The translations under genes were made by a program, and so were the position numbers. This document shows positions 33,530-53,694 of a stretch of 64,000 nt of DNA, piece by piece. The notes under the pieces were generated by a model. The model saw only the letters and a list, made by a program, of their open reading frames with translations, ran no database searches and had not been told where the DNA came from. Each line of letters opens with the position of its first letter. The stretch's first letter is position 1. The stretch comes from Candidatus Brennerbacteria bacterium (GTDB lineage Bacteria > Patescibacteriota > Minisyncoccia > UBA6257 > GWB1-50-10), in assembly GCA_016183535.1 (NCBI GenBank), contig JACPEK010000004.1, forward strand, positions 73,013-137,012, in the 5' to 3' direction.

Positions 33530-33849
33530 TGGTGGACATGCCCGGAGTTGAACCGGGGTGTAACGCGTTTTAAGAAAAGCCCTCTACAAGCTTAGATCTC
33601 TTACGAGAACGAACGGTTCGTAATTTGGCCTTTGGCTACTGAACCTGCCTTACCGAAGGCGAGCCTCAAATATTACACCGGTAAACCCCTATGAAGCCTC
33701 GGGAACCGATGTCCTACTTACGCGAAAGCGTAGGCGGGAGCTGCAACTTTAGAGTTGGCAGTTTTAGGTTTGACCATGGATTTACGAGCGAATGGTCGGC
33801 TCGGCCTGCAAGCTAATCCTATTACACGCTATCAAGGCCCGTCATGCCC
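33530..33849 (-). ncRNA. ssrA: tmRNA (ssrA), about 320 nt. Predicted tag ANSKVAAPAYAFA.
   Basis: 3' end CCCGG-TTCAACT-CCGGG T-arm + CATGTCC + ACCA. 5' end GGGCATG pairs with CATGTCC, giving G3:U70. Resume codon GCC at about nt 91 after an A-rich tract, encoding ANSKVAAPAYAFA-TAA. One gene away from smpB. Confidence 0.6.
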
Positions 33850-35382: not shown

Positions 35383-36438
35383 ATGGCGCAGATTAAAGTT
35401 GCTATTGTTGGCGTCGGTAACTGTGCGAAAAGCTTTGTAGAAGGCGTGGGGTTCTATACCAAGAACTCGAGCGACGAGGTTGGCTTGATGCATCCCGAAA
35501 TTGGTGGCTATCGCCCTTCCGACATTAACGTTGTGGCCGCGTTCGATATCGATGAAAGGAAGGTCGGAAAGAAACTCCACGAAGCAATTCGCGCTACTCC
35601 CAATAGAACCGTCAAAATCGCGGACCCTCTAGAGTCAAACGTGATGGTGCAAAGAGGCCCAACGCACGACAGCGTTATTGAGGAGATGCGAGAGCATTTT
35701 ATCCATGAGAGCAAAGAGCCGCCGGTGGACGTTGCGGAAGTACTGAAAACTTCGGGTGCTGAAATCGTAGTGAGCTACCTCCCCACTGGGAGCGACAAAG
35801 CCACCTACGCCTATGCGGAGGCTGCCCTTGCGGCGAATTGCAGCTTTATAAACTGCATGCCGACGCCTATCGCGAAGGATCAAAGCTGGAGGAAGAGATT
35901 TGAAGAGAAGGGACTGGTGCTGATGGGTGATGACATTAAAAGCCAGCTCGGCGCGACCATTCTCAACCGTGTCCTTCTCTCGCTTCTCAAAATGAGGGGA
36001 ATCAAGGTCACAAAGTCAGAGCAGGTGAACTACGGAGGGAACGCGGACCACTTCAATCTCCACTATCGGCCGGAGGCGAAGGAGGCATCCAAGGAAGATG
36101 CGCTGACGAGTGTGCTCAGCGAGGGCGATGCAAAGCCGTCGGCGCGGATGATATATACCGAGAAGAACTATGACCACAAGCAAGCGAAAATAAAGATTAC
36201 GGGAGAAATATGGGGGCACATTCCCATATCTATTGACCTCGCCCTTGAAGATGAGGACAGCCCGAATAGTGCGGGCGTGGTCATTGACGCAATCCGCGCG
36301 GCAAAGGCGCTCATTGATAACGGAGAACATGCGAAAGCAGGAGAAGCCTGTTCGTTTTTAATGAAATCCCCGCCAGTCCAATACTCTGACGAAAAAGCGC
36401 TTGAGAGATTTAGAAAAGTAATTGGGTTGGCGACGTGA
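35383..36438 (+). CDS. ino1: myo-inositol-1-phosphate synthase (bacterial/archaeal short type)
   Basis: KVAIVGVGNCA, NVVAAFDID, VSYLPTGS, GDDIKSQLGATI, DSPNSAGVVIDAIRAAK, LMKSPP. These align motif-for-motif with bacterial Ino1. Confidence 0.85.
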   Translation: MAQIKVAIVGVGNCAKSFVEGVGFYTKNSSDEVGLMHPEIGGYRPSDINVVAAFDIDERKVGKKLHEAIRATPNRTVKIADPLESNVMVQRGPTHDSVIEEMREHFIHESKEPPVDVAEVLKTSGAEIVVSYLPTGSDKATYAYAEAALAANCSFINCMPTPIAKDQSWRKRFEEKGLVLMGDDIKSQLGATILNRVLLSLLKMRGIKVTKSEQVNYGGNADHFNLHYRPEAKEASKEDALTSVLSEGDAKPSARMIYTEKNYDHKQAKIKITGEIWGHIPISIDLALEDEDSPNSAGVVIDAIRAAKALIDNGEHAKAGEACSFLMKSPPVQYSDEKALERFRKVIGLAT

Positions 36439-37680: not shown

Positions 37681-37965
37681 ATTATCTATACGGTAGCTGA
37701 TTACTAGTTTAACTGCAAGGGGCATATTCGGCAATTCGTGGATAGCATAAAGTACTGTAAAAACGCAGTAAATATGGGCATTTTCACTGAAAATCTCAAA
37801 ATCTGGTGATTCGTCTGTTTGAGTTATCCACTCTACTAACCCACCGTTATTTTGTAGAAACCATGCTACAAGTGTCATTTTCCTTTGATTCGTTCTCGCT
37901 TGATCCGCGCGAGAACAGAGTTGCGGCACTATTTATTTACCCTCCCCAGTGCGATAGAGTGAATG

Positions 37966-39563
37966 AAATGATACGCGACGAGGTTCTGAAGGCCATCAAA
38001 AAACACATTCCGAAGGACGTGCCCGTAACACTCTCCGTTCCGGAAGATTCGCGCTTTGGCCACTACGCGACGAATGTGGCGTTTGCGCTCTCCAAAAAAG
38101 AAAGCAAGCCGCCGCTCGCGATAGCGGAGCACATCGCGTCCGCCGTCACGGGTTCAAAGCCCCCAGTTATTAGTCGAGCAACCGCCGCCGCGCCGGGATT
38201 CGTCAATTTTTTCATTAAGCCCGAGGCGCTTCAGGGCGAGCTGAACGAAATCGCGAAAGCGAAGAAAAAATACGGAGTTTCAAAAGAGCGGAAGGGTGAA
38301 AAGATGCAGGTAGAGTTCGTTTCCGCAAACCCTACCGGTCCCCTCACACTTGCGAACGGCAGGGGGGGATTCTTGGGCGATGTGCTCGCGAACGTACTTG
38401 AAGCCGCGGGTGCGTCCGTAGAGCGCGAATTCTATGTGAACGATACCGGCAATCAGATCTTCACGCTCGGGAAATCACTCCTCGCGGCGGGAGGATTTGT
38501 GCCCGATGAGGAGAATTTATACAAAGGCGAGTACGTGTCCGAATGGGCCACGAAGCATAAAACGGATGTGAAGAAGTTCCGCGGCGACCCAATGAAGCTT
38601 GGCGAACGCGCGGCGAAGGACTTTCTGAAACTCATACAGCGCGCATTGGAGAAAGAGGCGCACATCAAATTTGACCGGTACACGTCGGAGAAGGCCATAC
38701 ACGCGAAAGGGTACGCAAAGAAAGCGCTCGCGCTCTTCAAAAAGAAAGGCGCGACGTACGAGAGCGAAGGTGCCGTGTGGCTCAAAACCACCGCGCATGG
38801 CGACGACAAGGACCGCGTGGTCATCACGAAAGGCGGCTTCCCGACCTATTTCCTCGCGGACGCCGGCCACTACCTTGAGACCAAGGCGCGCGGATTCAAA
38901 GCGAAGATAAACATACTGGGGCCCGACCACTACGGATATGTGGCGCGCATACAAGCGGCGGCGAAGCTCGTAGGACTCCCGAAGTCGGACGTGCTCATCA
39001 CGCAGGCGGTGCGCCTCATCCGGGGCGGCGAGGAGGTGAAGATGTCCAAGCGGAAGGGGAACTTCGTGACGTTTGAAGAGGTGGTGGAGGAGGTAGGCGC
39101 CGACGCCGCGCGCTTCTTCTTCCTCTCCGTATCGCCCACGTCGCACCTAGACTTCAACCTGGACCTCGCCAAGGAGCGTTCCAAGAAGAACCCGGTGTAT
39201 TATGCCCAATACGCATTGGTACGAGCCAAAGGCGTATTGGGCAAAGTTCAAATATCAAAATCCAAATTTCAAAAGAATTCCGATTTGTCTTTGCTTAATA
39301 CATTAGACGACGCGGCGCTCCTTTTTCAACTCTCGCGGTTTCCGGAAGTGCTCGCGGATGCCGCGGCAACCTACGAGGTCCACCGGCTCACGCAATACGC
39401 CTCAACCCTCGCCCGCGCCTTCCATAATTTCTACGAAAAGGAGCACGTGCTAGGCGAAGTCCCCGCGCTCGCCGCCGCCCGCCTCGCGCTCGTCCGGGGG
39501 AGTATGGTGATATTCGAAAACCTCTTCCGCATCCTTAGCATCTCCGCGCCGGAGAAAATGTAA
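37966..39563 (+). CDS. argS: arginine--tRNA ligase
   Basis: HIGH-like region, class I core, and the C-terminal anticodon-binding DALR domain (NPVYYAQYA). The track ORF starts at 37806; ATG 37966 (MIRDEVL) fits. Confidence 0.9.
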
Positions 39564-40716: not shown

Positions 40717-43700
40717 TTGATGTTTCGCAATCTAAAAGAATTTTCGCTCCCGGCGGTGGAAGAAAAAGTGCTCGCCTACTGGCGGGCGAATCGCGTTTTT
40801 GAGGCGTCGCTCGCGAAGACCGCGAAGGGAAAACAGTTCGTGTTCTATGAAGGTCCGCCGACCGCGAACGGCAGGCCCGGCATCCACCACGTGCTCGCGC
40901 GCGCCTTCAAAGACATCATTCCGCGCTACAAAACGATGCGAGGGTTCCATGTGCCGCGCCGCGGCGGGTGGGACACGCACGGACTCCCCGTGGAGATCGA
41001 GGTGGAAAAAGCGCTTGGGTTGAAATCAAAAAAAGAGATAGAGAAGTTCGGTATCGCGGCATTCAACGCGCAGTGTAAGGAGTCGGTGTGGAAGTACAAA
41101 GACGAGTGGGAGCGGCTCACCGAGCGGATGGGGTTCTGGCTCGACATGAACCACCCCTACATCACGTATGAGAACCGCTATATGGAGGCGGTGTGGGGGA
41201 TATTGAAGAAAGTGTGGGAGAAGAAATTGCTCTACCGCGGCCACAAGGTGGTGCCGTGGTGCCCGCGTTGCGGCACTGGATTATCTTCGCACGAGCTCGC
41301 GCTCGGATATGAAACAGTGGAAGACACGTCGGTCTACGTGAAATTTAAGTTGAAAGTAAACAATGAAAAAAGAGGAGTAACACAAATCGGAAATCGCGAG
41401 TATAAAGATATTTATATTTTGTCGTGGACTACGACGCCGTGGACCTTGTCGGGGAACGTTGCGCTCGCGGTTGGAAAAGATATCGAATATGCGATCACTG
41501 AAAGAGGCAAGGAAACATGGATAGTTGCCGAAAGCTCGCCGTTAGGAAAGGAGCTCGGTCATATTTCTCTTGTAAGAGGGGAGGAGCTTGTTGGTTTGGA
41601 ATACGAGCCGCTATTTGACGTGCCTTCGCTTAGATCAAAAACTTCGTACCAGGTGTACCCCGCGGACTTCGTGACCACCGAGGACGGTACCGGTGTGGTG
41701 CACACCGCGGTCATGTACGGCGAGGAGGATTACCAGCTTGGCGTAAAAGTAGGGCTTCCCATGCGCCACACGGTGGACGAGGCGGGAAAGTTCACAAAAG
41801 AGGTAAAAGGATTTGAGGGAATGTTTGTGAAAGCGCCAGAAACCGAGAAGAAAATCATTGATTACCTACAAACTACCCACCATTTACTACGTACTGAACC
41901 CTATTCGCACGAGTATCCGTTTTGTTGGCGTTGTCAGACACCGCTCCTCTACTACGCGCGTGATTCGTGGTTTATCGCGATGTCGAAACTTCGCGACGAG
42001 CTTCTTCGAGAGAACAAGAAAATCAACTGGGTTCCCGCGCATCTACGGGACGGACGTTTCGGCGAGTGGCTCCGCGAGGTAAAGGATTGGGCCATCTCCC
42101 GCGCGCGCTATTGGGGAACGCCACTTCCCATCTGGGAGTGTGAAAAGTGCGAAGCGCGAGAGGTGATAGGAAGCATGGAAGAGCTCCAAACGCGCGCGGC
42201 TGCCGGCAATAGATTTATTTTTATGCGCCATGGTGAGGCGGACCACAACGTACTTAATCTCTGCGGGACCTACGAGGACACTCGTTTATTCACCTCGCGC
42301 CTCACGAAAAAAGGAGCGGTGACGGTGCGAAAAACCGCGATGGCGATGAGAAAGGAAAAAGTGGATTACATCGTAACCTCGCAGCTCGCGCGCGCGAAGG
42401 AAACCGCGGCTATTCTCAAAGAAGTATTGGGCGGCACGATTGTGGTGGAGTCGGGATTGCGCGAAATGAACAGCGGGAATTTCGCGGGAAAACCGGTAGA
42501 AGATTTCTTTAAGCTTTTCAAGAGCAAACGCGAGATGTTCGCTAAAAATCCTCACGGCGGCGAAACATGGGACGATGTGCGGAAGCGCGCGTGGGGAGCG
42601 TTTCGTTCGCTTAATAGGCGTTATAAGGGAAAAATAATCGTGGTAGTGGGACACGGCGATCCGCTTTGGATTTTGAAGGGTGCCCTGGAAGGCGTGACGA
42701 ACGATGAGCAACTTACCCTCCCATATCCGAAGACGGGCGTGCGGTACGGAGTGAGAACCGGCGCCTTGCCGCGCGATGCCGAGGGGCGCGTGGATCTCCA
42801 CCGGCCGTATGTGGACGATCTTGCGCTTGCATGTGAAAAGTGCGAGGGAACCATGAAACGCGTGCCGGAGGTCTTGGATGTATGGTTCGACTCGGGCGCA
42901 ATGCCGTTCGCGGCGAATAAGTCATTCACCGCTCAATTTAAGATTGAAAAGTTGAAGGATTATCCAGCGGACTACATCAGCGAGGGCGTGGATCAGACGC
43001 GCGGGTGGTTCTACACCTTGCACGCAATCGGCGCTTTGATGGGTAAGGGCCGCGCGTATAAGAATGTGATCTCGCTTGGGCTCGTGCTTGATAAGAACGG
43101 CCAGAAGATGTCGAAGTCCAAAGGGAACACCGTAGACCCGTGGGCGATGATACAGAAATACGGCATCGATGCGGTGCGCTGGTACCTCTACACCGTGAAT
43201 CCGGCGGGCGAGCCGAAGAAATTCGACGAAGCTGAAATAGGAAAGACACTCCGGCAGTTCCTCATGATGGTCTATAACTCGTGGCTTTTTTACAAAACAT
43301 ACGCATTAAAAAATCCAAATTCCAAAATCCAAATGCCAAAATCGTCCAACGTGTTGGATAAATGGGTGATCGCACGATTGGAGGAGGCAAAAGATGCGGC
43401 AACGGAGTCGCTTGAATCATATGAAGTGGGGGATGCGGCGCGCGCGATAGAAGCGTTCGCGGGCAATCTTTCGCGCTGGTACATTCGCTGCTCGCGTCGC
43501 CGGTTTCAGCCTGCCCGCATTGCTACGCAAAGCGTTGCAGGCGGGAAACCGGATCCGTCTGCTGATGGAGAAAAAGACTACCACGCGGCGTCAGGGACGC
43601 TCGGATACGTGCTCCTAGAGCTCACCAAGCTTATGGCGCCGTTCACGCCGTTCTTTGCGGAAGCGCTGTATCTCTCGCTCGCGCCGAACAAGAAAGGAGC

Positions 43701-44280
43701 GGTCGAGAGCGTGCATTTGGAAGGCTGGCCGAAGATTGACTCAAAAATAAAAATCAAAAACCAAAAGCTATTGGAAGCGATGGAGGAGGTGCGGCGATTG
43801 GCAAGTAAGGGGCTCGCGATACGCGCGGAGAAAGGCATCAAGGTACGCCAGCCGCTCGCTTCGCTCAAGCTAAAAACTAATAACTTACAACTAAAAACCA
43901 GCAAAGAATTCCTTGCGATCCTTGCGGATGAAGTGAATGTGAAAAAGGTGGTCGTGGATACGAAGCTGAAGGAAGAATTGGTGCTCGATACGAACATCAC
44001 TCACGAGCTTCTAGAGGAAGGGTGGTTCCGCGAGCTCGTGCGCACAGTGCAGGGGATGCGGCAGGACGCGAAACTAACGCCCAAGGATACGATTACGGTT
44101 TATTGCGAGGCGGGAGAAGAACTTACGCACGTACTCCGCGCGCGCGAAAAAAAATTCAAGCGCGAGGTGAACGCGAAATCGGTGGAATTTTCAAAAAATC
44201 ACAAACACAACGTTGAGCTCCAAACAAAAATAGGGAATTTCCCCGCATGGTTCGCCGTACGAAAAAACGGCTCGCGGTGA
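40717..44280 (+). CDS. ileS: isoleucine--tRNA ligase with inserted histidine-phosphatase domain
   Basis: HIGH (PPTANGRPGIHHV), KMSKS (KMSKSKGN) and editing domain. 1187 aa, which is 150-250 aa longer than typical. Residues about 499-690 form an RHG phosphatase fold. Confidence 0.95.
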   Translation: MMFRNLKEFSLPAVEEKVLAYWRANRVFEASLAKTAKGKQFVFYEGPPTANGRPGIHHVLARAFKDIIPRYKTMRGFHVPRRGGWDTHGLPVEIEVEKALGLKSKKEIEKFGIAAFNAQCKESVWKYKDEWERLTERMGFWLDMNHPYITYENRYMEAVWGILKKVWEKKLLYRGHKVVPWCPRCGTGLSSHELALGYETVEDTSVYVKFKLKVNNEKRGVTQIGNREYKDIYILSWTTTPWTLSGNVALAVGKDIEYAITERGKETWIVAESSPLGKELGHISLVRGEELVGLEYEPLFDVPSLRSKTSYQVYPADFVTTEDGTGVVHTAVMYGEEDYQLGVKVGLPMRHTVDEAGKFTKEVKGFEGMFVKAPETEKKIIDYLQTTHHLLRTEPYSHEYPFCWRCQTPLLYYARDSWFIAMSKLRDELLRENKKINWVPAHLRDGRFGEWLREVKDWAISRARYWGTPLPIWECEKCEAREVIGSMEELQTRAAAGNRFIFMRHGEADHNVLNLCGTYEDTRLFTSRLTKKGAVTVRKTAMAMRKEKVDYIVTSQLARAKETAAILKEVLGGTIVVESGLREMNSGNFAGKPVEDFFKLFKSKREMFAKNPHGGETWDDVRKRAWGAFRSLNRRYKGKIIVVVGHGDPLWILKGALEGVTNDEQLTLPYPKTGVRYGVRTGALPRDAEGRVDLHRPYVDDLALACEKCEGTMKRVPEVLDVWFDSGAMPFAANKSFTAQFKIEKLKDYPADYISEGVDQTRGWFYTLHAIGALMGKGRAYKNVISLGLVLDKNGQKMSKSKGNTVDPWAMIQKYGIDAVRWYLYTVNPAGEPKKFDEAEIGKTLRQFLMMVYNSWLFYKTYALKNPNSKIQMPKSSNVLDKWVIARLEEAKDAATESLESYEVGDAARAIEAFAGNLSRWYIRCSRRRFQPARIATQSVAGGKPDPSADGEKDYHAASGTLGYVLLELTKLMAPFTPFFAEALYLSLAPNKKGAVESVHLEGWPKIDSKIKIKNQKLLEAMEEVRRLASKGLAIRAEKGIKVRQPLASLKLKTNNLQLKTSKEFLAILADEVNVKKVVVDTKLKEELVLDTNITHELLEEGWFRELVRTVQGMRQDAKLTPKDTITVYCEAGEELTHVLRAREKKFKREVNAKSVEFSKNHKHNVELQTKIGNFPAWFAVRKNGSR

Positions 44281-44776: not shown

Positions 44777-44806
44777 TAGCTTGCTATACTTAAGTATAGC
44801 AAGCTA
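44777..44806. repeat. 30-bp palindrome with CTATACTTAAGTATAG core
   Basis: TAGCTTGCTATACTTAAGTATAGCAAGCTA. Overlaps the trpS stop codon. Confidence 0.7.
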
Positions 44807-45811
44807 GGCAAGGCCGATTTTCTTTTTTACTTCCACCATTTTTTTCTGTGCAACCTTTATGGCGATTCGGGTTCCTTTTGTAAATGTGGTTTTCGCGGCG
44901 ACGGCGGAGATTTTCTTTTTTGTTGTCTGATATGAAACGAGCGTTTTCACTGCCACGTTCGCAAGATCGTCCTTGAAATCAGCATAGCCCTTTCCTGTGT
45001 AGCGCCTTTCGAGCGCGGGAATACTTTCCCCTGAAAGCGAAGAATAGATGAGAAGGAGATTGGAGACACCCGGTTTATCCTTTTCATCATATTTAATCTC
45101 TCTCCCGGAATCGGTGGTCGCGCGACTGAATTTCGCCCGGATCTCCGCGAGAGAATCGTCCATAAAAAGACACCCCGCGGGGCGCGATTTGGACATTTTC
45201 TTTGCGGGGTCATCCAAGCTCATGAGGCGGGGAACATCCGTATGAAGCGCTTTCGGTTCCACGAACGTTTTGCCGAAGCGGACGTTAAACTTGCGTGCGA
45301 GGGTTCGCGCGAGTTCCAAATGCTGGTCTTGGTCATCGCCGACCGGCACCACTGCCGCGTCGTAGAGGAAAATGTCTGCCGCCATGAGGATAGGATATTC
45401 AGCGAGACCAAAATTGGATCGCTCGACGACCTCCTCAAACGTTTCCTTCTTTCCTAATTTTTGAATCACTTTTTCCTTGAATGCAGTCATGCGCATCAGC
45501 TCGCTCACCGGAGTGAATGTGGCGAGAACCTGGGCGAGCTCTTGGGGAAAGGATGTGGCAGACTGTATGAAAAGCGTTGATTTCCGGGGGTCTAATCCCG
45601 CCGCAAGGAAAGCGCGCATAAGGTTTTCGATGTTTCCCTTCAACTCTCTTGGATCGGGATTTTGGGTGAGCGCATGGAGATCGGCGATGAAAAAGAAGCA
45701 CCGATATTTTCCGGAGTTCTGGAGTTCGACAAAATGTTTTAAGGCGCCGAGGTAGTTTCCGAGATGGAGTGCGCCTGTAGGCTGGATTCCGGAGACAAGA
45801 ATGGGTTTCAT
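44804..45811 (-). CDS. trpS: tryptophan--tRNA ligase
   Basis: HLGNYLG (HIGH) and KMSKS (KMSKS) motifs. Confidence 0.9.
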   Translation of the reverse strand: MKPILVSGIQPTGALHLGNYLGALKHFVELQNSGKYRCFFFIADLHALTQNPDPRELKGNIENLMRAFLAAGLDPRKSTLFIQSATSFPQELAQVLATFTPVSELMRMTAFKEKVIQKLGKKETFEEVVERSNFGLAEYPILMAADIFLYDAAVVPVGDDQDQHLELARTLARKFNVRFGKTFVEPKALHTDVPRLMSLDDPAKKMSKSRPAGCLFMDDSLAEIRAKFSRATTDSGREIKYDEKDKPGVSNLLLIYSSLSGESIPALERRYTGKGYADFKDDLANVAVKTLVSYQTTKKKISAVAAKTTFTKGTRIAIKVAQKKMVEVKKKIGLA

Positions 45812-45891: not shown

Positions 45892-47790
45892 TTAAATTTC
45901 AATAATAACGGGCAACACCATTGGCCGGCGTTTGGTTTTTGTGAACAAAAACTGGCCGATTTGGTCGCGAACGAGAGTTTTCACGTAGTCGGCGTCCACC
46001 GGCTGGTAGTGGGGGATGCGCCCGACGATGCCGCGAATGCGTTTTCGGATCTCGTCGAGCATTCCCTGATGTTCCTTGAGATAAATGAAGCCGCGCGAGA
46101 TGATATCGGGGTTTTTCAGGATCCGCCCGTCGCGCTTCGAGAGTGTGACGATAATAACAATCATGCCTTCCTGCGCGAGGGTCAGGCGATCCCGCAAGAC
46201 CACCTCGCCCACGTCGCCCACACCCAATCCGTCCACCATGACATAGTAAGCGGGTACCTCTTCGCCGGTGAGGCGGATGCCTTGTTTTGAAATCTCGACC
46301 ACAAGGCCGTTGTCGGCCACCACCGTGTCGTGCGGCTTGAGCCCCAACATCTCCTGCGCGAGTTTGGCGTTCCGCCAGCGCATGAAGTAGTAACCATGGA
46401 TGGGGAGAAAATGTTTCGGTTTCACGAGGCCCATCACCGCCTTCAACTCCTCCTGCGGCGCGTGGCCCGAGGAGTGAATATCAAGCATCTTATGATGGTA
46501 GATCAAGGCGCCCTGCCGCGCGAGGTTGTCCTTCAAGTTTTGTACGCTCCGTTCGTTTCCCGGCACCACCGAAGAAGAAAGCACCACCGTATCGCCGGGT
46601 TTGATCCTTACCTGCTTGTGCTCGCCGTTCGCGATCCGCATAAGCGAGGCGTTCGGCTCACCCTGCGCACCCGTCGAAAGGATCATGACTTTTTCGTCTT
46701 TGTGTTTCCCTATCTCTTCCAAGGGAATGATAGTTTCCTTGTTGAATTTGAAATAGCCGAGGCGTTGGGCGATCTGCACATTCGATTTCATGGAGTAGCC
46801 GGAGAGCGCTACTTTGCGACCCAGCTTTTCGGCAATTTTTACGATCTCACCCAGACGGTCAAGGAGCGACGCGAAGGTGCCCACGATGATGCGACCCCCT
46901 GCGGATTTGAAGAGTTTCTCGAGCTCGGCCTCCACGATGCGCTCCGAGAGAGCGTAGCCGGGCACCTCCGCGCCGGTCGAATCGAGCATGAGGGTGTGAA
47001 TACCCTGCGCGCCGACCCACTTCCACGTGTCGAGGCCCCGGGGCTTCCCCTCGTGGTCATAGTCGAATTTAAATTCTCCCGGGTGGACGATGTTCCCCAC
47101 CGGCGTTTCGAGAATAATACCGATGCCTTCCGGAATGTTGTGCACGACGTCGAAGAATCGCGCGGAGAAATAATTGCCGAGCTTGTGCGTTTCCCCGCCC
47201 TTCACCAGCACAAAATTCGGCTTCGGTGAATTCGGAAAGTCATCCTGCCGTTTCATCACAATCTCTTTTGTGAGCGAGGTGGCGTAGATCGGCGGGTTGC
47301 CGAGTTTATCCAAAAGGTAGGGGACGGCGCCGATGTGATCGTAGTGGCCGTGCGTGATAATGGCGGCCTTGATATTCCGTTTCTTTCCTTCGAGATAGGT
47401 GACGTTGGGGATGATGTAGTCGATGCCGGGCGTCTCTTCTTCGGGGAATTGGAGCCCCATGTCAATAATGACAATCTCGTCTTTATACTCGAAAAACATC
47501 ATGTTTCTGCCGATTTCCTCGAGTCCGCCCAAAGCGACGAAACGCACCGCATCGGGAGAGGCCGGCGTCTGATGTGCAAGCTCCGGACGGTGAGTGATCC
47601 TTCTCGCGGGTCGCGCCGCATCGCGGAATCCGCGACTCGCCCGTGCGGCGCCCGTGCGCGCGCCGGTGCCTTTCGCCGAAAACCGTCTTTCTTCCGTCGG
47701 ACGCGCGGAAACGCGCGCTCCGCGGGGAATTTCACGATCGGCGGCGCGCAAATCATCGCGACCGCCTTCGATATTTTTATTGGCTGTCAT
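45892..47790 (-). CDS. rnj: ribonuclease J (beta-CASP MBL) with Arg-rich N-terminal extension
   Basis: HGHYDHIG motif, beta-CASP, C-terminal domain. About 90-aa low-complexity N-terminus. Confidence 0.85.
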   Translation of the reverse strand: MTANKNIEGGRDDLRAADREIPRGARVSARPTEERRFSAKGTGARTGAARASRGFRDAARPARRITHRPELAHQTPASPDAVRFVALGGLEEIGRNMMFFEYKDEIVIIDMGLQFPEEETPGIDYIIPNVTYLEGKKRNIKAAIITHGHYDHIGAVPYLLDKLGNPPIYATSLTKEIVMKRQDDFPNSPKPNFVLVKGGETHKLGNYFSARFFDVVHNIPEGIGIILETPVGNIVHPGEFKFDYDHEGKPRGLDTWKWVGAQGIHTLMLDSTGAEVPGYALSERIVEAELEKLFKSAGGRIIVGTFASLLDRLGEIVKIAEKLGRKVALSGYSMKSNVQIAQRLGYFKFNKETIIPLEEIGKHKDEKVMILSTGAQGEPNASLMRIANGEHKQVRIKPGDTVVLSSSVVPGNERSVQNLKDNLARQGALIYHHKMLDIHSSGHAPQEELKAVMGLVKPKHFLPIHGYYFMRWRNAKLAQEMLGLKPHDTVVADNGLVVEISKQGIRLTGEEVPAYYVMVDGLGVGDVGEVVLRDRLTLAQEGMIVIIVTLSKRDGRILKNPDIISRGFIYLKEHQGMLDEIRKRIRGIVGRIPHYQPVDADYVKTLVRDQIGQFLFTKTKRRPMVLPVIIEI

Positions 47791-50456: not shown

Positions 50457-52028
50457 CTAACTCTCGCGGAAATATGGGAGCAAGCTCACGCCGGTCATCT
50501 CGGGTGGCTTGGGAATCCTCATGAGGTCGAGGATGGTAGGTGCCACGTCGGCGAGAAACCCTTCAACTTGGTTTGCGCGCGGGCGGAGAGGATTTAAGCT
50601 TGCCGGTCCTAAAGACGGACGCGCGACTTCGGGCGCCACGAGCCAGCACGGCACGGGACTTGGATTGTGTTTTGTCTCCGGTTCCCCGGTTTTAAGATCA
50701 ATCAGCACTTCCGCGTTGCCGTGGTCGGCGGTGATGAGCGCCGCGTGCCCCCCCTCTTCGACTGCGGTAAGCAGGCGTCGGAGCTCACGATCGACGGTTT
50801 CGATGGCGGCGACGGTTGCGGCGTAGTTTCCTGTGTGGGCGATAATGTCCGGATTTGCATAGTTCATAAGAATAAAATCGAAGCTTCCTTCGCGGAGCGC
50901 AAGCATGGCGCGATCCGTCACGGCGCGAGCCATCATTTCCGGATGTGTGTCTTTGTGGAATGCCGAGAGGGAAGGCACGAGGATCCGAAATTCGTTTGGG
51001 AACGGTTCCTCGCGCCGGCCGTTGAAGAAATAAGTCACGTGAGCATATTTTTCCGTTTCGGCAATGCGGAGCTGGCGGAGACCATGCGCGGCGATAGTTT
51101 CGCCGAGAGAATGCGCCATGGGTTCCGCGGGGAAGGCGGCGCGCGCGGGAGAATGTTCGCGGTATGCCGTCATGGTGACAAAATACGCGTCTTCGAGTCG
51201 CGTGCGCGGGAAGGCGTTGAACGTGGGGGAGATGAACGCGTCGGCGAGCTGGCGGATGCTGTCCTCGCGGAAGTTGAAGAAAATGACCGTGTCGCCGCGC
51301 GCGACGGGGCGAAACTCCGGGAGTTTTCTCGGTTCCACAAACTCGTCGTTTAGGCCTTTCGCATACGTTTCTTGGAGCGCCGCTTCCCATGAGGCGGCGA
51401 AAGGCGCTTCGCCCGCGAGCGCGCGGTAGGCAACGGCGGTGCGATCGAAGTGACCGTCGCGATCCATACCGTAGTAGCGACCCCCGAGCGACGCAAGGCG
51501 GACATTCGGATGTGTCGCACTCGCCGCAAGCACTTTCGGAACGAGTGTCCGCGCTTCGCGAGGCGCGCTGTCGATGCCATCAGTCATGAGATGGAGCGCA
51601 ACCAACACCTCGGGATAGTCGTCCGCCATCCGAATGAGCGCCTCAAGGTGAGAGAACGAAGCGTGGACCAGTCCGCTCGTGAGAAGACCCACAAGATGGA
51701 GGGTACTGTGGCGCGCACGGGCGTGCGTGAACGCTCCGCGGAGCGCTTCGTTCTTCGTGAAGGTTCCCTGCGCGATTGCGCGCGTGATGCGTTCCGAATG
51801 CTGTTCGCTTGGGCGCCCCGCGCCGAGCGTAATATGCCCCGCCTCACTGTTTCCCTCTTCGTCCCAAGGGAGTCCCACCGCGAGGCCGGAAGCTTGGAGC
51901 GCCACGCCGGGGTAGCGCGTTTCGATGGTGGCGATGGTTTCTGGCCGCGCGGCGTAGATGGGGTTGCCCTGATCCGAAGGGCCGAGCCCCCACCCGTCGA
52001 GGATAGCAAGGAGATAAGTTCGTTTCAT
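50457..52028 (-). CDS. gpmI: 2,3-bisphosphoglycerate-independent phosphoglycerate mutase
   Basis: MKRTYLLAILDGWG start, metal-binding and Ser-phosphotransfer motifs of iPGM. 523 aa. Confidence 0.9.
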   Translation of the reverse strand: MKRTYLLAILDGWGLGPSDQGNPIYAARPETIATIETRYPGVALQASGLAVGLPWDEEGNSEAGHITLGAGRPSEQHSERITRAIAQGTFTKNEALRGAFTHARARHSTLHLVGLLTSGLVHASFSHLEALIRMADDYPEVLVALHLMTDGIDSAPREARTLVPKVLAASATHPNVRLASLGGRYYGMDRDGHFDRTAVAYRALAGEAPFAASWEAALQETYAKGLNDEFVEPRKLPEFRPVARGDTVIFFNFREDSIRQLADAFISPTFNAFPRTRLEDAYFVTMTAYREHSPARAAFPAEPMAHSLGETIAAHGLRQLRIAETEKYAHVTYFFNGRREEPFPNEFRILVPSLSAFHKDTHPEMMARAVTDRAMLALREGSFDFILMNYANPDIIAHTGNYAATVAAIETVDRELRRLLTAVEEGGHAALITADHGNAEVLIDLKTGEPETKHNPSPVPCWLVAPEVARPSLGPASLNPLRPRANQVEGFLADVAPTILDLMRIPKPPEMTGVSLLPYFRES

Positions 52029-52170: not shown

Positions 52171-53694
52171 ATGACATGGTCACCTTTGACGGCGACGGCG
52201 CTCGCGCTTGCGGCGCTTGTGGCCGGATATGCGATTCGACTTTGGACCGCGGGGCGCGCCGCGCGCGCCACGGCGGATGCCCACGCGCGCGAAGCTGATG
52301 CCGCGCGTGCGGAAGCGAAGGAAATAACGCTCTCTGCGAAAAGCGAAGCGACTTCTATTCTCGCGGAAGTCCAACGCGAAGAACGCGAGCGGAAACTGGA
52401 GATAAGGAAACTCGAAGAGCGCATCGCGAAGCGCGAGGACGATCTCCGCGAGGAGCGAAAAACACTTGATGCGGAATCCACGCGCCTCAAGAACGAAGAA
52501 ACCCGCGTCAGGACGCTTGAAGACGACGCCCACGCGGCACGCGAAAAAGCGGTCAAGGCACTCGAAGGTTTCGCGGGGCTCACCCGCGAAGAAGCCGCGC
52601 GGAAGCTTTTCGCGGAGATCGAAGCCTCATCGCGCGACGATCTCGCGAAAGCGATCGTTAAACTCGAACGGGAACGGCGTGACGCGCTTGAAGCGAAAGC
52701 GAACGAGGTTCTCACCTCGGTCATCCAGCGATACGCGCGCGATCATGTTGCCGAGATCACCACTACCGCGTTCGATCTTCCCGGAGAAGAAATTAAAGGG
52801 AAGATCATTGGGAAGGAGGGACGCAACATCCGGGCGTTCGAGCGTGCGACCGGCGTCGAGGTTATTATCGATGAAACGCCCGAGAGTCTCATTATTTCTT
52901 CGTTCGATCCGTACCGGCGCGAGCTCGCCAAAATGACTCTCGAGAAGCTTCTGAAGGATGGCCGCATTCAGCCGGCAAAGATAGAAGAAAAAACAGAAGA
53001 GGCGCGTGCGGAGCTTGATCAACGGGTCGAGAAAATCGGGGAAGACGCCGCAGCGGATCTCGGCATTTTCGATTTTCCGAAGGAAATCATCGCGCTCATC
53101 GGGCGACTCCATTTCCGCACCAGCTACGGGCAGAACGTGCTCCAACACTCGATTGAGATGACTCATCTTGCGGGGATGCTCGCGGCGGAGCTCGGCGCGG
53201 ATGTCGAAATCGCGAAGCGGGCGGCCTTGGTGCACGATATCGGAAAAGCGATTGACCACGATGTCGAGGGCACGCATGTCGAGCTTGGGCGGAAGCTTCT
53301 CAAAAAATGCGGCGTAGACGACCGCGTTGTGAAAGGCATGGAAGCGCATCACGAGGAGTATCCCTATGCGACGCCGGAGGCGTACATCGTGGCGGCGGCG
53401 GACGCGATCTCCGCCGCGCGGCCCGGGGCGCGACGTGACACACTCGAGAAATATGTGAAGCGCCTCGAAGCCATCGAGAAGACCGTGAAGGAGTTTGAGG
53501 GCGTGAACCAGGCTTATGCCATCGCCGCGGGGCGTGAAGTGCGGGTATTCGTGGTGCCGGAGAAGATTGACGATTTCGGCGCGCTTGAACTTGCAAAGAA
53601 AATTGCGGGGAAAATACAATCCGATGTGGATTATCCGGGCGAGATCAAGGTAACGGTGATCCGCGAGGTGCGGGCGGTGGAATATGCCCGATAG
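52171..53694 (+). CDS. rny: ribonuclease Y
   Basis: N-terminal TM plus coiled coil, KH domain (IIGKEGRNIRAFE), HD domain (HDIGKA). Confidence 0.9.
   Translation: MTWSPLTATALALAALVAGYAIRLWTAGRAARATADAHAREADAARAEAKEITLSAKSEATSILAEVQREERERKLEIRKLEERIAKREDDLREERKTLDAESTRLKNEETRVRTLEDDAHAAREKAVKALEGFAGLTREEAARKLFAEIEASSRDDLAKAIVKLERERRDALEAKANEVLTSVIQRYARDHVAEITTTAFDLPGEEIKGKIIGKEGRNIRAFERATGVEVIIDETPESLIISSFDPYRRELAKMTLEKLLKDGRIQPAKIEEKTEEARAELDQRVEKIGEDAAADLGIFDFPKEIIALIGRLHFRTSYGQNVLQHSIEMTHLAGMLAAELGADVEIAKRAALVHDIGKAIDHDVEGTHVELGRKLLKKCGVDDRVVKGMEAHHEEYPYATPEAYIVAAADAISAARPGARRDTLEKYVKRLEAIEKTVKEFEGVNQAYAIAAGREVRVFVVPEKIDDFGALELAKKIAGKIQSDVDYPGEIKVTVIREVRAVEYAR

What the first reader, a model, noticed from the sequence alone, without database searches (positions are those of the whole stretch)
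42211..42786. Histidine-phosphatase (RHG/PGM-like) domain inserted in-frame into IleRS, splitting its zinc knuckle
Seen in sequence: inside ileS, between ...WECEKCEAREVIGSMEELQTRAAAGN and RVDLHRPYVDDLALACEKCEGTMKRV (the two CxxC halves of the IleRS Zn motif), there is a segment of about 190 aa: FIFMRHGEADHN...SRLTKKGAVTVRKTAMAMRKEKVDYIVTSQLARAKETAAIL...REMNSGNFAGKPVEDF...VRKRAWGAFRSLNRRYKGKIIVVVGHGDPLWIL. This carries every hallmark of the histidine phosphatase superfamily branch 1 (RHGE catalytic His, LT..G..QA, SS.L.RA.QTA, E.xxG.WEG, the late HG His). Established knowledge: IleRS is normally 900-1050 aa and has no such domain. Inference: this is a chimeric essential enzyme whose phosphatase module could act on a nucleotide or phospho-intermediate (for example aminoacyl-adenylate, Ap4A or a 3'-phospho-tRNA end). 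I do not know of a described IleRS with this architecture.
Basis: partly seen in the sequence, partly recalled or inferred. Interest (0 to 1): 0.8.

Follow-up and report, generated by a model that had tools for sequence, protein, structure and literature searches.

The report
Active phosphatase domain nested inside IleRS
The enzyme that loads isoleucine onto tRNA in this candidate-phyla-radiation (CPR) bacterium carries a complete, apparently active phosphatase inside its catalytic core; hundreds of related species share this, or encode the same phosphatase as a separate gene directly in front of the synthetase gene, and no paper found here describes it.

Summary
ORF 40720-44280 (+) is a type-2 isoleucyl-tRNA synthetase (TIGR00392, 861 bits). 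About 196 aa (aa 496-691) are inserted between the two Cys pairs of its CP3 zinc knuckle. The insert is a histidine phosphatase domain (PF00300, E 1e-32).

It is not an assembly artefact. All 120 best full-length homologs carry it, as do about 140 cluster representatives at 50% identity and more than 301 species-representative genomes of Parcubacteria/Paceibacteria. Catalytic residues are essentially invariant in 184 proteins: R504, H505 and H646 184/184, R559 183/184, E583 always Glu or Asp.

New finding: in related lineages the same phosphatase is a free-standing gene of about 190 aa. In six of seven sampled cases it lies between argS and an insert-less ileS, abutting or overlapping the ileS start. 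Fused and split states are locally mutually exclusive and alternate within IleRS sublineages. That points to functional coupling with IleRS.

The substrate is unknown. The closest folds are small-molecule phosphomonoesterases (PhoE, PspA, GpgP). The window has its own iPGM, so the insert is not the cell's only phosphoglycerate mutase. My preferred guess, at about 25%, is a phosphorylated tRNA 3' end.

No publication describing this architecture was found. It is a new variant of a known kind.

The parts
40720..44280 (+). ileS gene: type-2 isoleucyl-tRNA synthetase with nested phosphatase domain. The ATG at 40720 is the GenBank start; the ORF finder lists TTG at 40717. 1186 aa plus stop.
   Evidence: The AF2 full-length model has pLDDT 89.2 and pTM 0.82. 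Best PDB fold matches are the type-2 IleRSs 8C8V, 8C8U, 1ILE and 8WND.
40879..40890 (+). Class-I signature motif in its non-canonical form, G55-I56-H57-H58 (GXHH instead of HXGH).
   Evidence: 145 of 184 family members have G at position 55 and H at position 57. This motif is described for IleRS2 and linked to mupirocin hyper-resistance in PMC10485003.
42082..42117 (+). CP2-CP3 linker KDWAISRARYWG (aa 456-467), which lines the tRNA 3'-CCA-end pocket in homologous IleRS.
   Evidence: The equivalent yeast IleRS linker, ARDWNVSRNRYWG, forms part of the CCA-end/reveromycin pocket. Its Arg460 and Arg462 correspond to the LeuRS residues that contact the C74 and A76 phosphates (PMC7955072). The two Arg residues are invariant in alignment A4.
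42139..42150 (+). First half of the CP3 zinc knuckle, C475-E-K-C478.
   Evidence: It aligns with the first Cys pair of the T. thermophilus IleRS CP3. Conserved in 170 and 162 of 184 proteins. The Thermus CP3 carries a zinc-binding motif (PMC7191050).
42202..42789 (+). Inserted histidine phosphatase domain (aa 496-691). The Pfam His_Phos_1 match covers aa 501-674, which is nt 42217-42738.
   Evidence: E 1.3e-32. The domain AF2 model has pLDDT 88. Nearest folds are PhoE 1H2E/1EBB (TM 0.80, rmsd 2.2-2.3 A), PspA 4IJ6 and GpgP 4PZ9. pLDDT is 91-97 across the insert in the full-length model.
42226..42231 (+). R504-H505 of the RHG motif. H505 is the predicted phospho-accepting nucleophile.
   Evidence: Both are conserved in 184 of 184 proteins and are invariant in the free-standing family as well.
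42391..42393 (+). R559, the second phosphate-binding arginine (SxxxR motif).
   Evidence: 183 of 184; invariant in alignment A5.
42463..42465 (+). E583, the predicted general acid/base.
   Evidence: 167 Glu plus 17 Asp out of 184. The free-standing consensus has Asp at this position.
42652..42654 (+). H646, the second catalytic histidine, within the family-specific motif (S/G)H(G/E)(D/Y)P(L/I)W.
   Evidence: 184 of 184; invariant in alignment A5.
42832..42843 (+). Second half of the CP3 zinc knuckle, C706-E-K-C709.
   Evidence: It aligns with the second Cys pair of the Thermus CP3. Both Cys are conserved in 167 of 184 proteins.
43105..43119 (+). KMSKS loop (aa 797-801), intact.
   Evidence: K 179, M 169, S 179, K 181 and S 160 out of 184.
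37806..39563 (+). argS (arginyl-tRNA synthetase), the upstream synteny partner. In split-state relatives the phosphatase gene lies between argS and ileS.
   Evidence: ORF and translation. The argS -> phosphatase -> ileS order is seen in L081, L086, L088, L089, L090 and L091.

Best explanation
Shown, with confidence about 0.9. The segment is a folded, catalytically competent PhoE-type histidine phosphatase domain nested in the CP3 zinc-knuckle subdomain of an otherwise complete type-2 IleRS. The host keeps its signature motif (as GXHH), KMSKS, the CP1 editing motifs and the anticodon-binding domains. The architecture is ancient and lineage-wide in Parcubacteria/Paceibacteria.

Shown. The same phosphatase family also exists as a free-standing gene of about 190 aa placed immediately upstream of insert-less ileS, abutting or overlapping its start codon. 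The two states exclude each other locally and alternate within IleRS sublineages.

Inferred, confidence about 0.5. The phosphatase is therefore a dedicated functional partner of IleRS, not a passenger. It should work by the standard family mechanism. His505 attacks a phosphomonoester held by Arg504, Arg559 and His646. Glu583 protonates the leaving group, and the phospho-histidine intermediate is then hydrolysed. The insertion point lies 8 residues after the linker that lines the tRNA CCA-end pocket and immediately before the DVWFDSG strand of the isoleucine site. The domain therefore hangs at the mouth of the synthetic site.

Most likely single substrate, speculative, about 0.25: the acceptor end of tRNA(Ile) or of tRNAs generally, carrying a blocking 3'(2')-phosphate or pyrophosphate that is removed before charging. 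Next most likely, about 0.2: an adenine-nucleotide or PPi-type product or by-product of the IleRS reaction.
For: Domain identity and intact catalytic set.

Exact insertion point in CP3.

Not an artefact and very widespread: 120 of 120 best homologs carry PF00300; 139 representatives at E<=1e-30, nearly all spanning both IleRS flanks; 301 or more species genomes; 80 of 80 loci have one continuous ORF.

Selection pattern: the insert is the least conserved segment (41% mean pairwise identity against 54-72% for the core modules) while its active-site residues are invariant.

Fused-versus-adjacent link: 6 of 7 sampled free-standing members lie between argS and an insert-less ileS (942-976 aa where complete), with spacing from a 20-nt overlap to a 3-nt gap. 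Inserted and free forms are each other's closest relatives at 39-49% identity. In 78 of 80 insert-bearing loci no free copy lies within +-6 kb. Insert-bearing P0311 is 64%/53% identical to the insert-less L081 IleRS but only 38.5% identical to the window's IleRS.

Proximity to the CCA-end pocket: PMC7955072.

Phosphorylated CCA ends exist in nature and block charging, and the responsible enzymes can be tRNA-specific: 10.1101/2021.04.30.441581 and PMC11559606.

Each tandem copy in multi-copy relatives keeps the RHG motif.
Against: No activity or substrate has been measured. Every close structural neighbour acts on small molecules, and the domain keeps the cap region typical of small-molecule members. 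I know of no histidine phosphatase that acts on RNA ends (own knowledge). Nothing explains why IleRS, of all the synthetases, would need this. The basic charge of the free-standing forms looked suggestive but largely tracks Lys-rich, AT-rich genomes. I could not read model coordinates, so I do not know whether the phosphatase active site faces the synthetic site. One sampled free-standing relative (P0479) is not next to ileS. Conserved gene order among housekeeping genes can arise without functional coupling.
Confidence: 0.5

Rival explanations
1. Passenger enzyme. The phosphatase is a general housekeeping phosphomonoesterase, or a phosphoglycerate mutase, with no connection to aminoacylation. 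It sits in or next to ileS only because CP3 tolerates insertions and co-expression with an essential gene is convenient in a tiny genome.
For: The nearest folds and HMMs are metabolic phosphatases and mutases: PhoE, PspA, GpgP, archaeal dPGM and CobC. One relative (P0479) lies beside secA and not beside ileS. CP3 varies in structure among IleRSs (PMC7191050). CPR IleRSs also accept a GNAT insertion.
Against: The fused and adjacent states alternate repeatedly and exclude each other, which is hard to explain without a functional tie. No NCBIfam equivalog reaches its cut-off: dPGM_arch 73 against 225, CobC 65 against 163, PspA 50 against 350. The window already encodes an iPGM at 50457-52028. The junctions are short and conserved, and the whole-protein model is confident at pTM 0.82, which suggests a fixed mounting and not a loose tether.
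Confidence: 0.17
2. Product or by-product clearance. The domain hydrolyses a small nucleotide-type phosphate made at the IleRS active site, such as PPi, AMP or adenosine polyphosphates. This would pull the activation and editing cycles forward or remove an inhibitory side product.
For: The domain has a small-molecule-type fold with a cap region. It is located at the mouth of the synthetic site. IleRS burns extra ATP in editing (established knowledge). Fusion and operon linkage fit enzymes that pass ligands to each other.
Against: Such a need would apply to all synthetases, not IleRS alone. Branch-1 histidine phosphatases are not known as pyrophosphatases (own knowledge). Dephosphorylating AMP would waste a nucleotide in organisms that depend on salvage.
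Confidence: 0.2
3. Protein phosphatase. The domain removes an inhibitory phosphate from IleRS itself or from another translation factor, for example one added by a HipA-like kinase toxin or a regulatory kinase.
For: Branch-1 members such as SixA, PGAM5 and Sts-1 dephosphorylate proteins, and kinase toxins are known to inactivate GltX and TrpS (own knowledge). A built-in or operon-encoded antidote would fit the fused/adjacent pattern.
Against: No kinase partner appears in the neighbourhoods. There is no hit to defence-system models. Protein-directed members usually have open active sites, whereas this domain resembles capped small-molecule enzymes. A lineage-wide, ancient distribution is unusual for a toxin countermeasure.
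Confidence: 0.1
4. Assembly chimera, or a decayed and non-functional insertion.
For: Only the general caution that applies to any metagenome-assembled genome.
Against: The same architecture occurs in hundreds of independent assemblies from NCBI, JGI, ENA and Logan. The frame is continuous, composition does not change across the junctions, and the catalytic residues are invariant.
Confidence: 0.01

Closest known systems
Type-2 isoleucyl-tRNA synthetase (IleRS2): T. thermophilus 1ILE and Priestia megaterium 8C8U/8C8V
   Same: Best sequence and fold matches. It shares the Zn-binding CP3, the CP1 editing domain, the type-2 C-terminal domains (Anticodon_1 plus DUF5915) and the non-canonical GXHH signature motif described for IleRS2.
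   Different: Known IleRS2 enzymes have a loop of about 6 residues where this protein has a phosphatase domain of about 196 aa. No solved or described IleRS carries a catalytic domain in CP3.
PhoE / YhfR broad-specificity phosphatase of Geobacillus stearothermophilus (1H2E, 1EBB) and similar compact branch-1 phosphatases (PspA 4IJ5/4IJ6, GpgP Rv2419c 4PZ9, HFP 9MMH)
   Same: Same fold (TM 0.76-0.80, rmsd 2.2-2.9 A), same size of about 190-200 aa, and the same catalytic Arg-His...Arg...Glu...His set.
   Different: Only 23-26% identity. It carries a family-specific (S/G)H(G/E)(D/Y)P(L/I)W motif after the second His. It is nested in, or operon-linked to, IleRS instead of being a stand-alone metabolic enzyme. 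The substrate is unknown.
Editing modules that occur both fused and free-standing: the ProRS INS domain versus YbaK/ProXp, the AlaRS editing domain versus AlaX, and ThrRS editing domains (own knowledge)
   Same: The evolutionary pattern is the same: an auxiliary hydrolase is either inserted in or fused to its synthetase or encoded as a separate protein serving the same synthetase.
   Different: Those modules are aminoacyl-ester hydrolases of unrelated folds with a known proofreading role. This one is a phosphomonoesterase fold, and the host IleRS already has an intact CP1 editing domain.
IleRS with an inserted GNAT acetyltransferase domain (NCBIfam NF040702, ileS_w_GNAT)
   Same: It is another case of a foreign catalytic domain nested in IleRS, and it is curated by NCBI. 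One relative, P0316, carries both GNAT and His_Phos_1.
   Different: The domain family and the insertion site differ (P0316 has GNAT at about aa 281-413, in the CP1 region). The window protein scores 323 bits against that model's 1999-bit cut-off.
Bifunctional RNase H / acid phosphatase (PRK07238; M. tuberculosis Rv2228c type)
   Same: A CobC/PhoE-like histidine phosphatase fused to a nucleic-acid enzyme, and among the better NCBIfam matches for the insert.
   Different: That is an end-to-end fusion, not a nested insertion. The score is 65 bits against a cut-off of 326, and the partner enzyme is unrelated.

Membership tests
Histidine phosphatase superfamily, branch 1 (Pfam PF00300) | Profile match above the curated gathering score | tested here: met
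   113.5 bits against a cut-off of 21.7, E 1.3e-32, covering profile positions 2-175 of 194.
Histidine phosphatase superfamily, branch 1 (Pfam PF00300) | Catalytic core: the RHG nucleophilic His with its preceding Arg, a second Arg, an acidic proton donor and a second His | tested here: met
   R504, H505, R559, E583 and H646 are present and are conserved in 184, 184, 183, 184 (Glu or Asp) and 184 of 184 family members.
Histidine phosphatase superfamily, branch 1 (Pfam PF00300) | Alpha/beta fold of the family | tested here: met
   The AF2 domain model (pLDDT 88) superposes on PhoE, PspA, GpgP and dPGM structures with TM 0.7-0.8.
Histidine phosphatase superfamily, branch 1 (Pfam PF00300) | Phosphatase or mutase activity through a phospho-histidine intermediate | not testable with these tools
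   This needs an enzyme assay.
Cofactor-dependent phosphoglycerate mutase (dPGM; NF038349, TIGR01258) | Equivalog-level profile score | tested here: not met
   dPGM_arch scores 73.3 bits against a cut-off of 225, and pgm_1 scores 30.8 against 81.7. The window also has its own iPGM.
CobC alpha-ribazole phosphatase, PspA phosphoserine phosphatase and SixA phosphohistidine phosphatase | Equivalog-level profile score | tested here: not met
   CobC 64.9 against 162.9, PspA 50.4 against 350, SixA 22.2 against 74.5.
Isoleucyl-tRNA synthetase (TIGR00392) | Equivalog profile score above the cut-off | tested here: met
   861.5 bits against a cut-off of 621.4, in two stretches interrupted by the insert.
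Isoleucyl-tRNA synthetase (TIGR00392) | Class-I signature motifs and CP1 editing motifs | tested here: met
   KMSKS is at aa 797-801. The signature motif is present as GIHH, a known IleRS2 variant. The WTTTPWT and GTG.VH.A...D editing motifs are invariant in alignment A4.
Type-2 IleRS (IleRS2) | Closest to the Thermus, Priestia IleRS2 and eukaryotic enzymes, with a type-2 C-terminal organisation and no C-terminal zinc-binding domain of IleRS1 | tested here: met
   1ILE scores 790 bits and 8C8W 770 bits, against 311 bits for the IleRS1 structure 1FFY. Fold ranking agrees. The C-terminus matches DUF5915.
Acquired mupirocin-resistance IleRS (MupA NF000257, MupB NF000258) | Exception-model score above the cut-off | tested here: not met
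   733 and 755 bits against a cut-off of 1900.
ileS_w_GNAT (NF040702) | Exception-model score, and presence of a GNAT domain | tested here: not met
   323 bits against a cut-off of 1999, and Pfam finds no GNAT domain in the window protein.
Sole, essential IleRS of the organism | No second ileS in the genome | not testable with these tools
   Only 64 kb of the 211-kb contig is available. The HMM scan found no second copy in the window.

The most novel reading that the evidence does not exclude
The phosphatase is a new kind of synthetase-coupled quality-control module: a 'phospho-proofreading' or end-healing step. [quoted passage not shown] That would make it the first histidine phosphatase acting on an RNA end and the first non-ester-hydrolysing repair activity built into an aminoacyl-tRNA synthetase.
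Probability: 0.2. Interest if true: 0.9.

Novelty: new variant of a known kind. Interest (0 to 1): 0.72.

Why it matters
Aminoacyl-tRNA synthetases are among the best-studied enzymes, and in bacteria their catalytic cores rarely acquire foreign catalytic domains. Here an unrelated and apparently active enzyme has been kept inside the core of an essential synthetase across a whole class-level lineage of CPR bacteria. The alternative split arrangement independently indicates that the two proteins belong together.

That makes the question directly testable: what phosphorylated molecule has to be handled alongside isoleucine charging in these ultra-small symbionts? The answer could reveal a new tRNA repair or quality-control step, a new way of driving or regulating aminoacylation, or a resistance mechanism.

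The family also offers natural fused and split pairs, plus variants with 2-4 tandem copies, for studying how domains are inserted into enzyme cores. On the practical side, hundreds of database entries are currently annotated as plain IleRS, 'class I tRNA ligase family protein' or 'hypothetical protein'.

Tried and rejected
1. Mis-assembly or chimera: rejected.

2. Glycolytic dPGM, CobC, PspA or SixA identity: all equivalog scores are far below their cut-offs, and the window has its own iPGM.

3. Mobile element, intein or recent insertion: there is no compositional break. The only flanking repeat is the 14-nt stretch encoding CEKCE in both zinc half-sites.

4. Defence-system membership: no meaningful PADLOC hit.

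5. Electrostatics as evidence for RNA binding: the free-standing proteins are as basic as IF3 and SmpB. However, the conserved basic positions are mostly generic family features, and the lysine excess tracks AT-rich genomes. I judged this inconclusive.

6. The first genome scan, with a 26-sequence alignment, failed because no stretch was conserved enough. It was repeated with 6 closer sequences.

7. Midpoint-rooted monophyly tests on the domain tree were uninformative. The unrooted view shows one pure clade of 95 free-standing sequences. That result rests on neighbour-joining of short sequences, and compositional attraction is possible, so the direction of change (fusion or fission) is unresolved.

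8. The 'proteins' of about 750 aa that start 40 residues before my query looked like split IleRS genes. They simply begin at the conserved Met421 and are probably gene-calling fragments.

9. Ten literature searches found no description of the architecture.

10. I could not obtain model coordinates, so I could not measure the orientation of the phosphatase active site relative to the synthetic site.
Full report
OBSERVATION. The window holds one uninterrupted ORF at 40717/40720-44280 on the + strand, 1187/1186 aa. It is identical to GenBank MBI2278811.1, annotated 'class I tRNA ligase family protein' from a Candidatus Brennerbacteria MAG on a 211-kb contig. Pfam finds tRNA-synt_1 in two stretches, His_Phos_1 at aa 501-674 (E 3.5e-31), Anticodon_1 and DUF5915. 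NCBIfam scores the protein as ileS (TIGR00392, 861.5 bits against 621.4), again in two pieces. GC content and skews show no discontinuity at the junctions.

WHERE THE INSERT SITS. The best solved relatives are type-2 IleRSs: T. thermophilus 1ILE (790 bits) and Priestia megaterium IleRS2 8C8W (770 bits). The type-1 enzyme 1FFY scores only 311 bits. In the 1ILE alignment, residues 1-481 pair with query 2-495 and residues 488-821 pair with query 692-1041. So about 196 aa replace a loop of about 6 residues. The flanking Cys pairs C475/C478 and C706/C709 align with the Cys pairs of the Thermus enzyme. The literature names this element the CP3 subdomain. CP3 connects CP2 to the second half of the Rossmann fold, and in the Thermus enzyme it carries a zinc-binding motif (PMC7191050). 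In yeast IleRS the CP2-CP3 linker ARDWNVSRNRYWG lines the pocket for the tRNA 3'-CCA end, and its Arg460 and Arg462 correspond to the LeuRS residues that contact the C74 and A76 phosphates (PMC7955072). The window's equivalent, KDWAISRARYWG (aa 456-467), ends 8 residues before the first zinc cysteine. The DVWFDSG strand follows soon after the second zinc half-site; from my own knowledge of class Ia synthetases, that strand contributes to the amino-acid pocket. By inference, the phosphatase therefore hangs at the mouth of the synthetic site.

STRUCTURE. AlphaFold2 with an 80-sequence alignment gives a confident full-length model: mean pLDDT 89.2, pTM 0.82, and block means of 91-97 across the insert. 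It superposes on the type-2 IleRSs 8C8V, 8C8U, 1ILE and 8WND. The domain modelled alone (pLDDT 88) is closest to compact small-molecule phosphomonoesterases. These are PhoE 1H2E/1EBB (TM 0.80, rmsd 2.2-2.3 A), the phosphoserine phosphatase PspA 4IJ6, the glucosyl-3-phosphoglycerate phosphatase 4PZ9 and the riboflavin-pathway HFP 9MMH, all at 23-26% identity (sequence-level matches). No NCBIfam equivalog comes near its cut-off, so the domain belongs to the superfamily but to no characterised subfamily.

NOT AN ARTEFACT, AND NOT RARE. All 120 best full-length homologs (52-74% identity, 1044-1373 aa) carry PF00300 inside IleRS. They come from NCBI, JGI, ENA and Logan assemblies of Brenner-, Jorgensen-, Lipton- and Harrisonbacteria, Minisyncoccia and Paceibacterota. 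An exhaustive search of 1.84 billion representatives at 50% identity found 139 proteins at E<=1e-30, and nearly all span both IleRS flanks and the insert. The best 80 come from many Parcubacteria lineages: Colwell-, Azam-, Nealson-, Taylor-, Zambryski-, Adler-, Yanofsky-, Nomura-, Wolfe- and Doudnabacteria, among others. Each of the 80 contains one continuous long ORF.

SELECTION. In 184 full-length proteins, R504, H505 and H646 are each conserved in 184 of 184, R559 in 183 of 184, and position 583 is always acidic (167 Glu, 17 Asp). That is tighter than the zinc cysteines (162-170 of 184) and comparable to KMSKS. Yet the insert as a whole is the least conserved segment, at 41% mean pairwise identity against 54-72% for the IleRS modules. 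A conserved active site on a freely evolving surface is the signature of a working enzyme. The host's own motifs are intact: KMSKS, the editing motifs WTTTPWT and GTG.VH.A..D, and the CCA-pocket arginines.

THE NEW EVIDENCE: FUSED OR ADJACENT. One 210-aa protein in the exhaustive search (P0352) had exactly the domain's boundaries. Searching with it found 107 free-standing His_Phos_1 proteins of about 190 aa from Parcubacteria. I looked up seven on long contigs. Six (P0427, P0393, P0416, P0466, P0410, P0439) lie between argS and an ileS that has no PF00300; the five complete ileS genes are 942-976 aa and the sixth runs off its contig. This is the same argS...ileS synteny as in the window. The phosphatase stop and the ileS start are 0-3 nt apart or overlap, by 4 nt (ATGA) in L086 and by 20 nt in L089, which is typical of translationally coupled genes. 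These IleRSs lack exactly the window's aa ~496-690 but keep both Cys pairs. The seventh protein (P0479) lies beside secA.

Inserted and free domains are each other's closest relatives at 39-49% identity, as close as inserted domains from different lineages are to each other. An HMM of the domain finds no free copy within +-6 kb in 78 of the 80 insert-bearing loci. The two exceptions are a short contig fragment (L006) and a distant paralog scoring 52 bits (L019). The window contains only the IleRS hit. In a host-IleRS tree the insert-less enzymes occupy three separate positions among insert-bearing ones. For example, insert-bearing P0311 is 64%/53% identical to the insert-less IleRS of L081 and shares its unusual motifs, but it is only 38.5% identical to the window's IleRS.

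The fused and split states have therefore interconverted more than once. The direction is unresolved, because the trees are neighbour-joining only. This fused-or-adjacent, mutually exclusive pattern is the classical signature of functional coupling. It parallels the way synthetase editing domains occur either fused or as free-standing trans-acting proteins (own knowledge).

MECHANISM. Shown: the domain identity, the complete catalytic set, the insertion point and the coupling pattern. Inferred from family chemistry: His505 attacks a phosphomonoester bound by Arg504, Arg559 and His646; Glu583 protonates the leaving group; and the phospho-enzyme is then hydrolysed.

The substrate is unknown. I rank the possibilities as follows.

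(a) A phosphorylated tRNA acceptor end, about 0.25. Such ends exist and block charging, and some of the toxSAS enzymes that make them are specific for particular tRNAs (10.1101/2021.04.30.441581; PMC11559606). The insertion point adjoins the CCA pocket.

(b) A nucleotide or PPi-type product or by-product, about 0.2.

(c) A passenger enzyme unrelated to IleRS, about 0.17. This is weakened by the repeated fused/split switching, and for the mutase version by the iPGM encoded at 50457-52028.

(d) A protein phosphatase, about 0.1.

The basic charge of the free-standing forms (+6.6 to +12.9 per 100 aa, similar to IF3 and SmpB) at first seemed to favour RNA binding. It largely reflects lysine-rich, AT-rich genomes and generic family positions, so I give it little weight.

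COMPARISON AND NOVELTY. The host is a member of IleRS2, including the known non-canonical GXHH signature motif. The insert is a member of histidine phosphatase branch 1, PhoE-like, but of no characterised subfamily. The combination is present in public databases only as unremarked annotations: 'isoleucine--tRNA ligase', 'class I tRNA ligase family protein', or 'hypothetical protein' for the free form. NCBI curates an exception model for GNAT-bearing IleRS (NF040702), but no such model for this architecture appeared among the matches. Ten full-text searches found no description. Two recent papers on IleRS2 evolution and domain architecture do not mention a phosphatase or Patescibacteria. I classify the finding as a new variant of a known kind: a known enzyme carrying a novel nested catalytic domain, with an evolutionary signature of functional coupling.

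LIMITS. There are no activity data. No model coordinates were available to measure how the two active sites face each other. The trees are distance-based. Only 7 free-standing genes were examined in context. I could not test whether the fused gene is the only ileS in its genome.

Noticed in passing
window 40879-40890 (aa 55-58 of IleRS): The class-I HIGH signature is GIHH, with positions 1 and 3 swapped. 145 of 184 family members have GxHH and 37 have HxGH. This is the known non-canonical G/AXHH motif of IleRS2, linked to mupirocin hyper-resistance (PMC10485003). It implies that these CPR IleRSs may be intrinsically highly mupirocin-resistant.
   Followed up: partly
relatives P0335, P0351, P0353, P0379, P0384, P0385: Some IleRS relatives carry 2, 3 or even 4 tandem His_Phos_1 domains at this site, and each keeps its RHG motif. 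In several, the second copy looks like a different subtype (RHGETDWN...HGG). Why an essential synthetase would multiply this domain is unexplained.
   Followed up: partly
relative P0316 (1561 aa): This IleRS carries both a GNAT acetyltransferase domain (about aa 281-413, in the CP1 region) and the His_Phos_1 insert (aa 649-818). NCBIfam has a curated exception model for GNAT-bearing IleRS (NF040702), so CPR IleRS appears to be a hotspot for nested catalytic domains.
   Followed up: no
window 42139-42152 and 42832-42845: A perfect 14-nt direct repeat, TGTGAAAAGTGCGA, flanks the insert with 693-nt spacing. Both copies encode CEKCE, the two zinc-knuckle halves, with identical codons. By my rough estimate about 0.003 such repeats would be expected by chance in 1.2 kb. 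It may be coincidence arising from identical peptides, or gene conversion. Relatives have different residues between the cysteines.
   Followed up: no
window 50457-52028 (-): A cofactor-independent phosphoglycerate mutase (Metalloenzyme plus iPGM_N domains). I used it as evidence that the IleRS insert is not the cell's only PGM.
   Followed up: yes
window 35383-36438 (+): A gene resembling myo-inositol-1-phosphate synthase (PF01658, E 2.8e-19) in a CPR genome. Its product would need a phosphatase. I found no link to the IleRS domain.
   Followed up: no
window 43513-43560 (aa ~933-948 of IleRS): This is the only low-confidence stretch of the AF2 model (pLDDT below 50). It is a Gly/Pro/Asp-rich loop (…GGKPDPSADGEKDY…) in the anticodon-binding region and has no counterpart in the 1ILE alignment.
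   Followed up: no
L081 9436-9825, L086 9503-9832, L088 8434-8751: A small conserved ORF of 105-129 aa, basic and without any Pfam hit, directly follows ileS and precedes recO in the split-state loci. It might be a further operon partner.
   Followed up: no
L083-L085 (P0479): A related free-standing phosphatase of 194 aa and pI 10.4 sits beside secA and the mur/fts cluster, not beside ileS, and falls outside the ileS-adjacent clade. It may be a paralog with another role.
   Followed up: partly
L017, L062 and P0001: A few insert-bearing IleRS contigs carry MAG labels outside Patescibacteria (Gammaproteobacteria, Spirochaetia, Sedimentisphaerales). All are short contigs and are probably mis-binned. 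Many TPA MAGs are labelled 'uncultured Candidatus Saccharibacteria', which may be a generic label.
   Followed up: no
representatives P0241, P0255, P0256, P0270, P0376 and others: Several 'proteins' of about 750 aa all begin at the conserved Met421 (MSKLRD...) of IleRS. They are probably gene-calling artefacts on broken ORFs, but a real split ileS at this point was not excluded.
   Followed up: partly
window 33530-33849 (-), plus seven tRNA genes: A tmRNA (tag peptide ANSKVAAPAYAFA) and seven tRNA genes (Arg-CCG, Leu-CAG, Gly-UCC, Pro-UGG, Arg-UCU, Phe-GAA, His-GUG) are present. There is no tRNA-Ile gene in the window. RNase J (45892-47790), RNase Y (52171-53694), TrpRS (44804-45811) and ArgRS are nearby, so this region is rich in translation and RNA-metabolism genes.
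   Followed up: no
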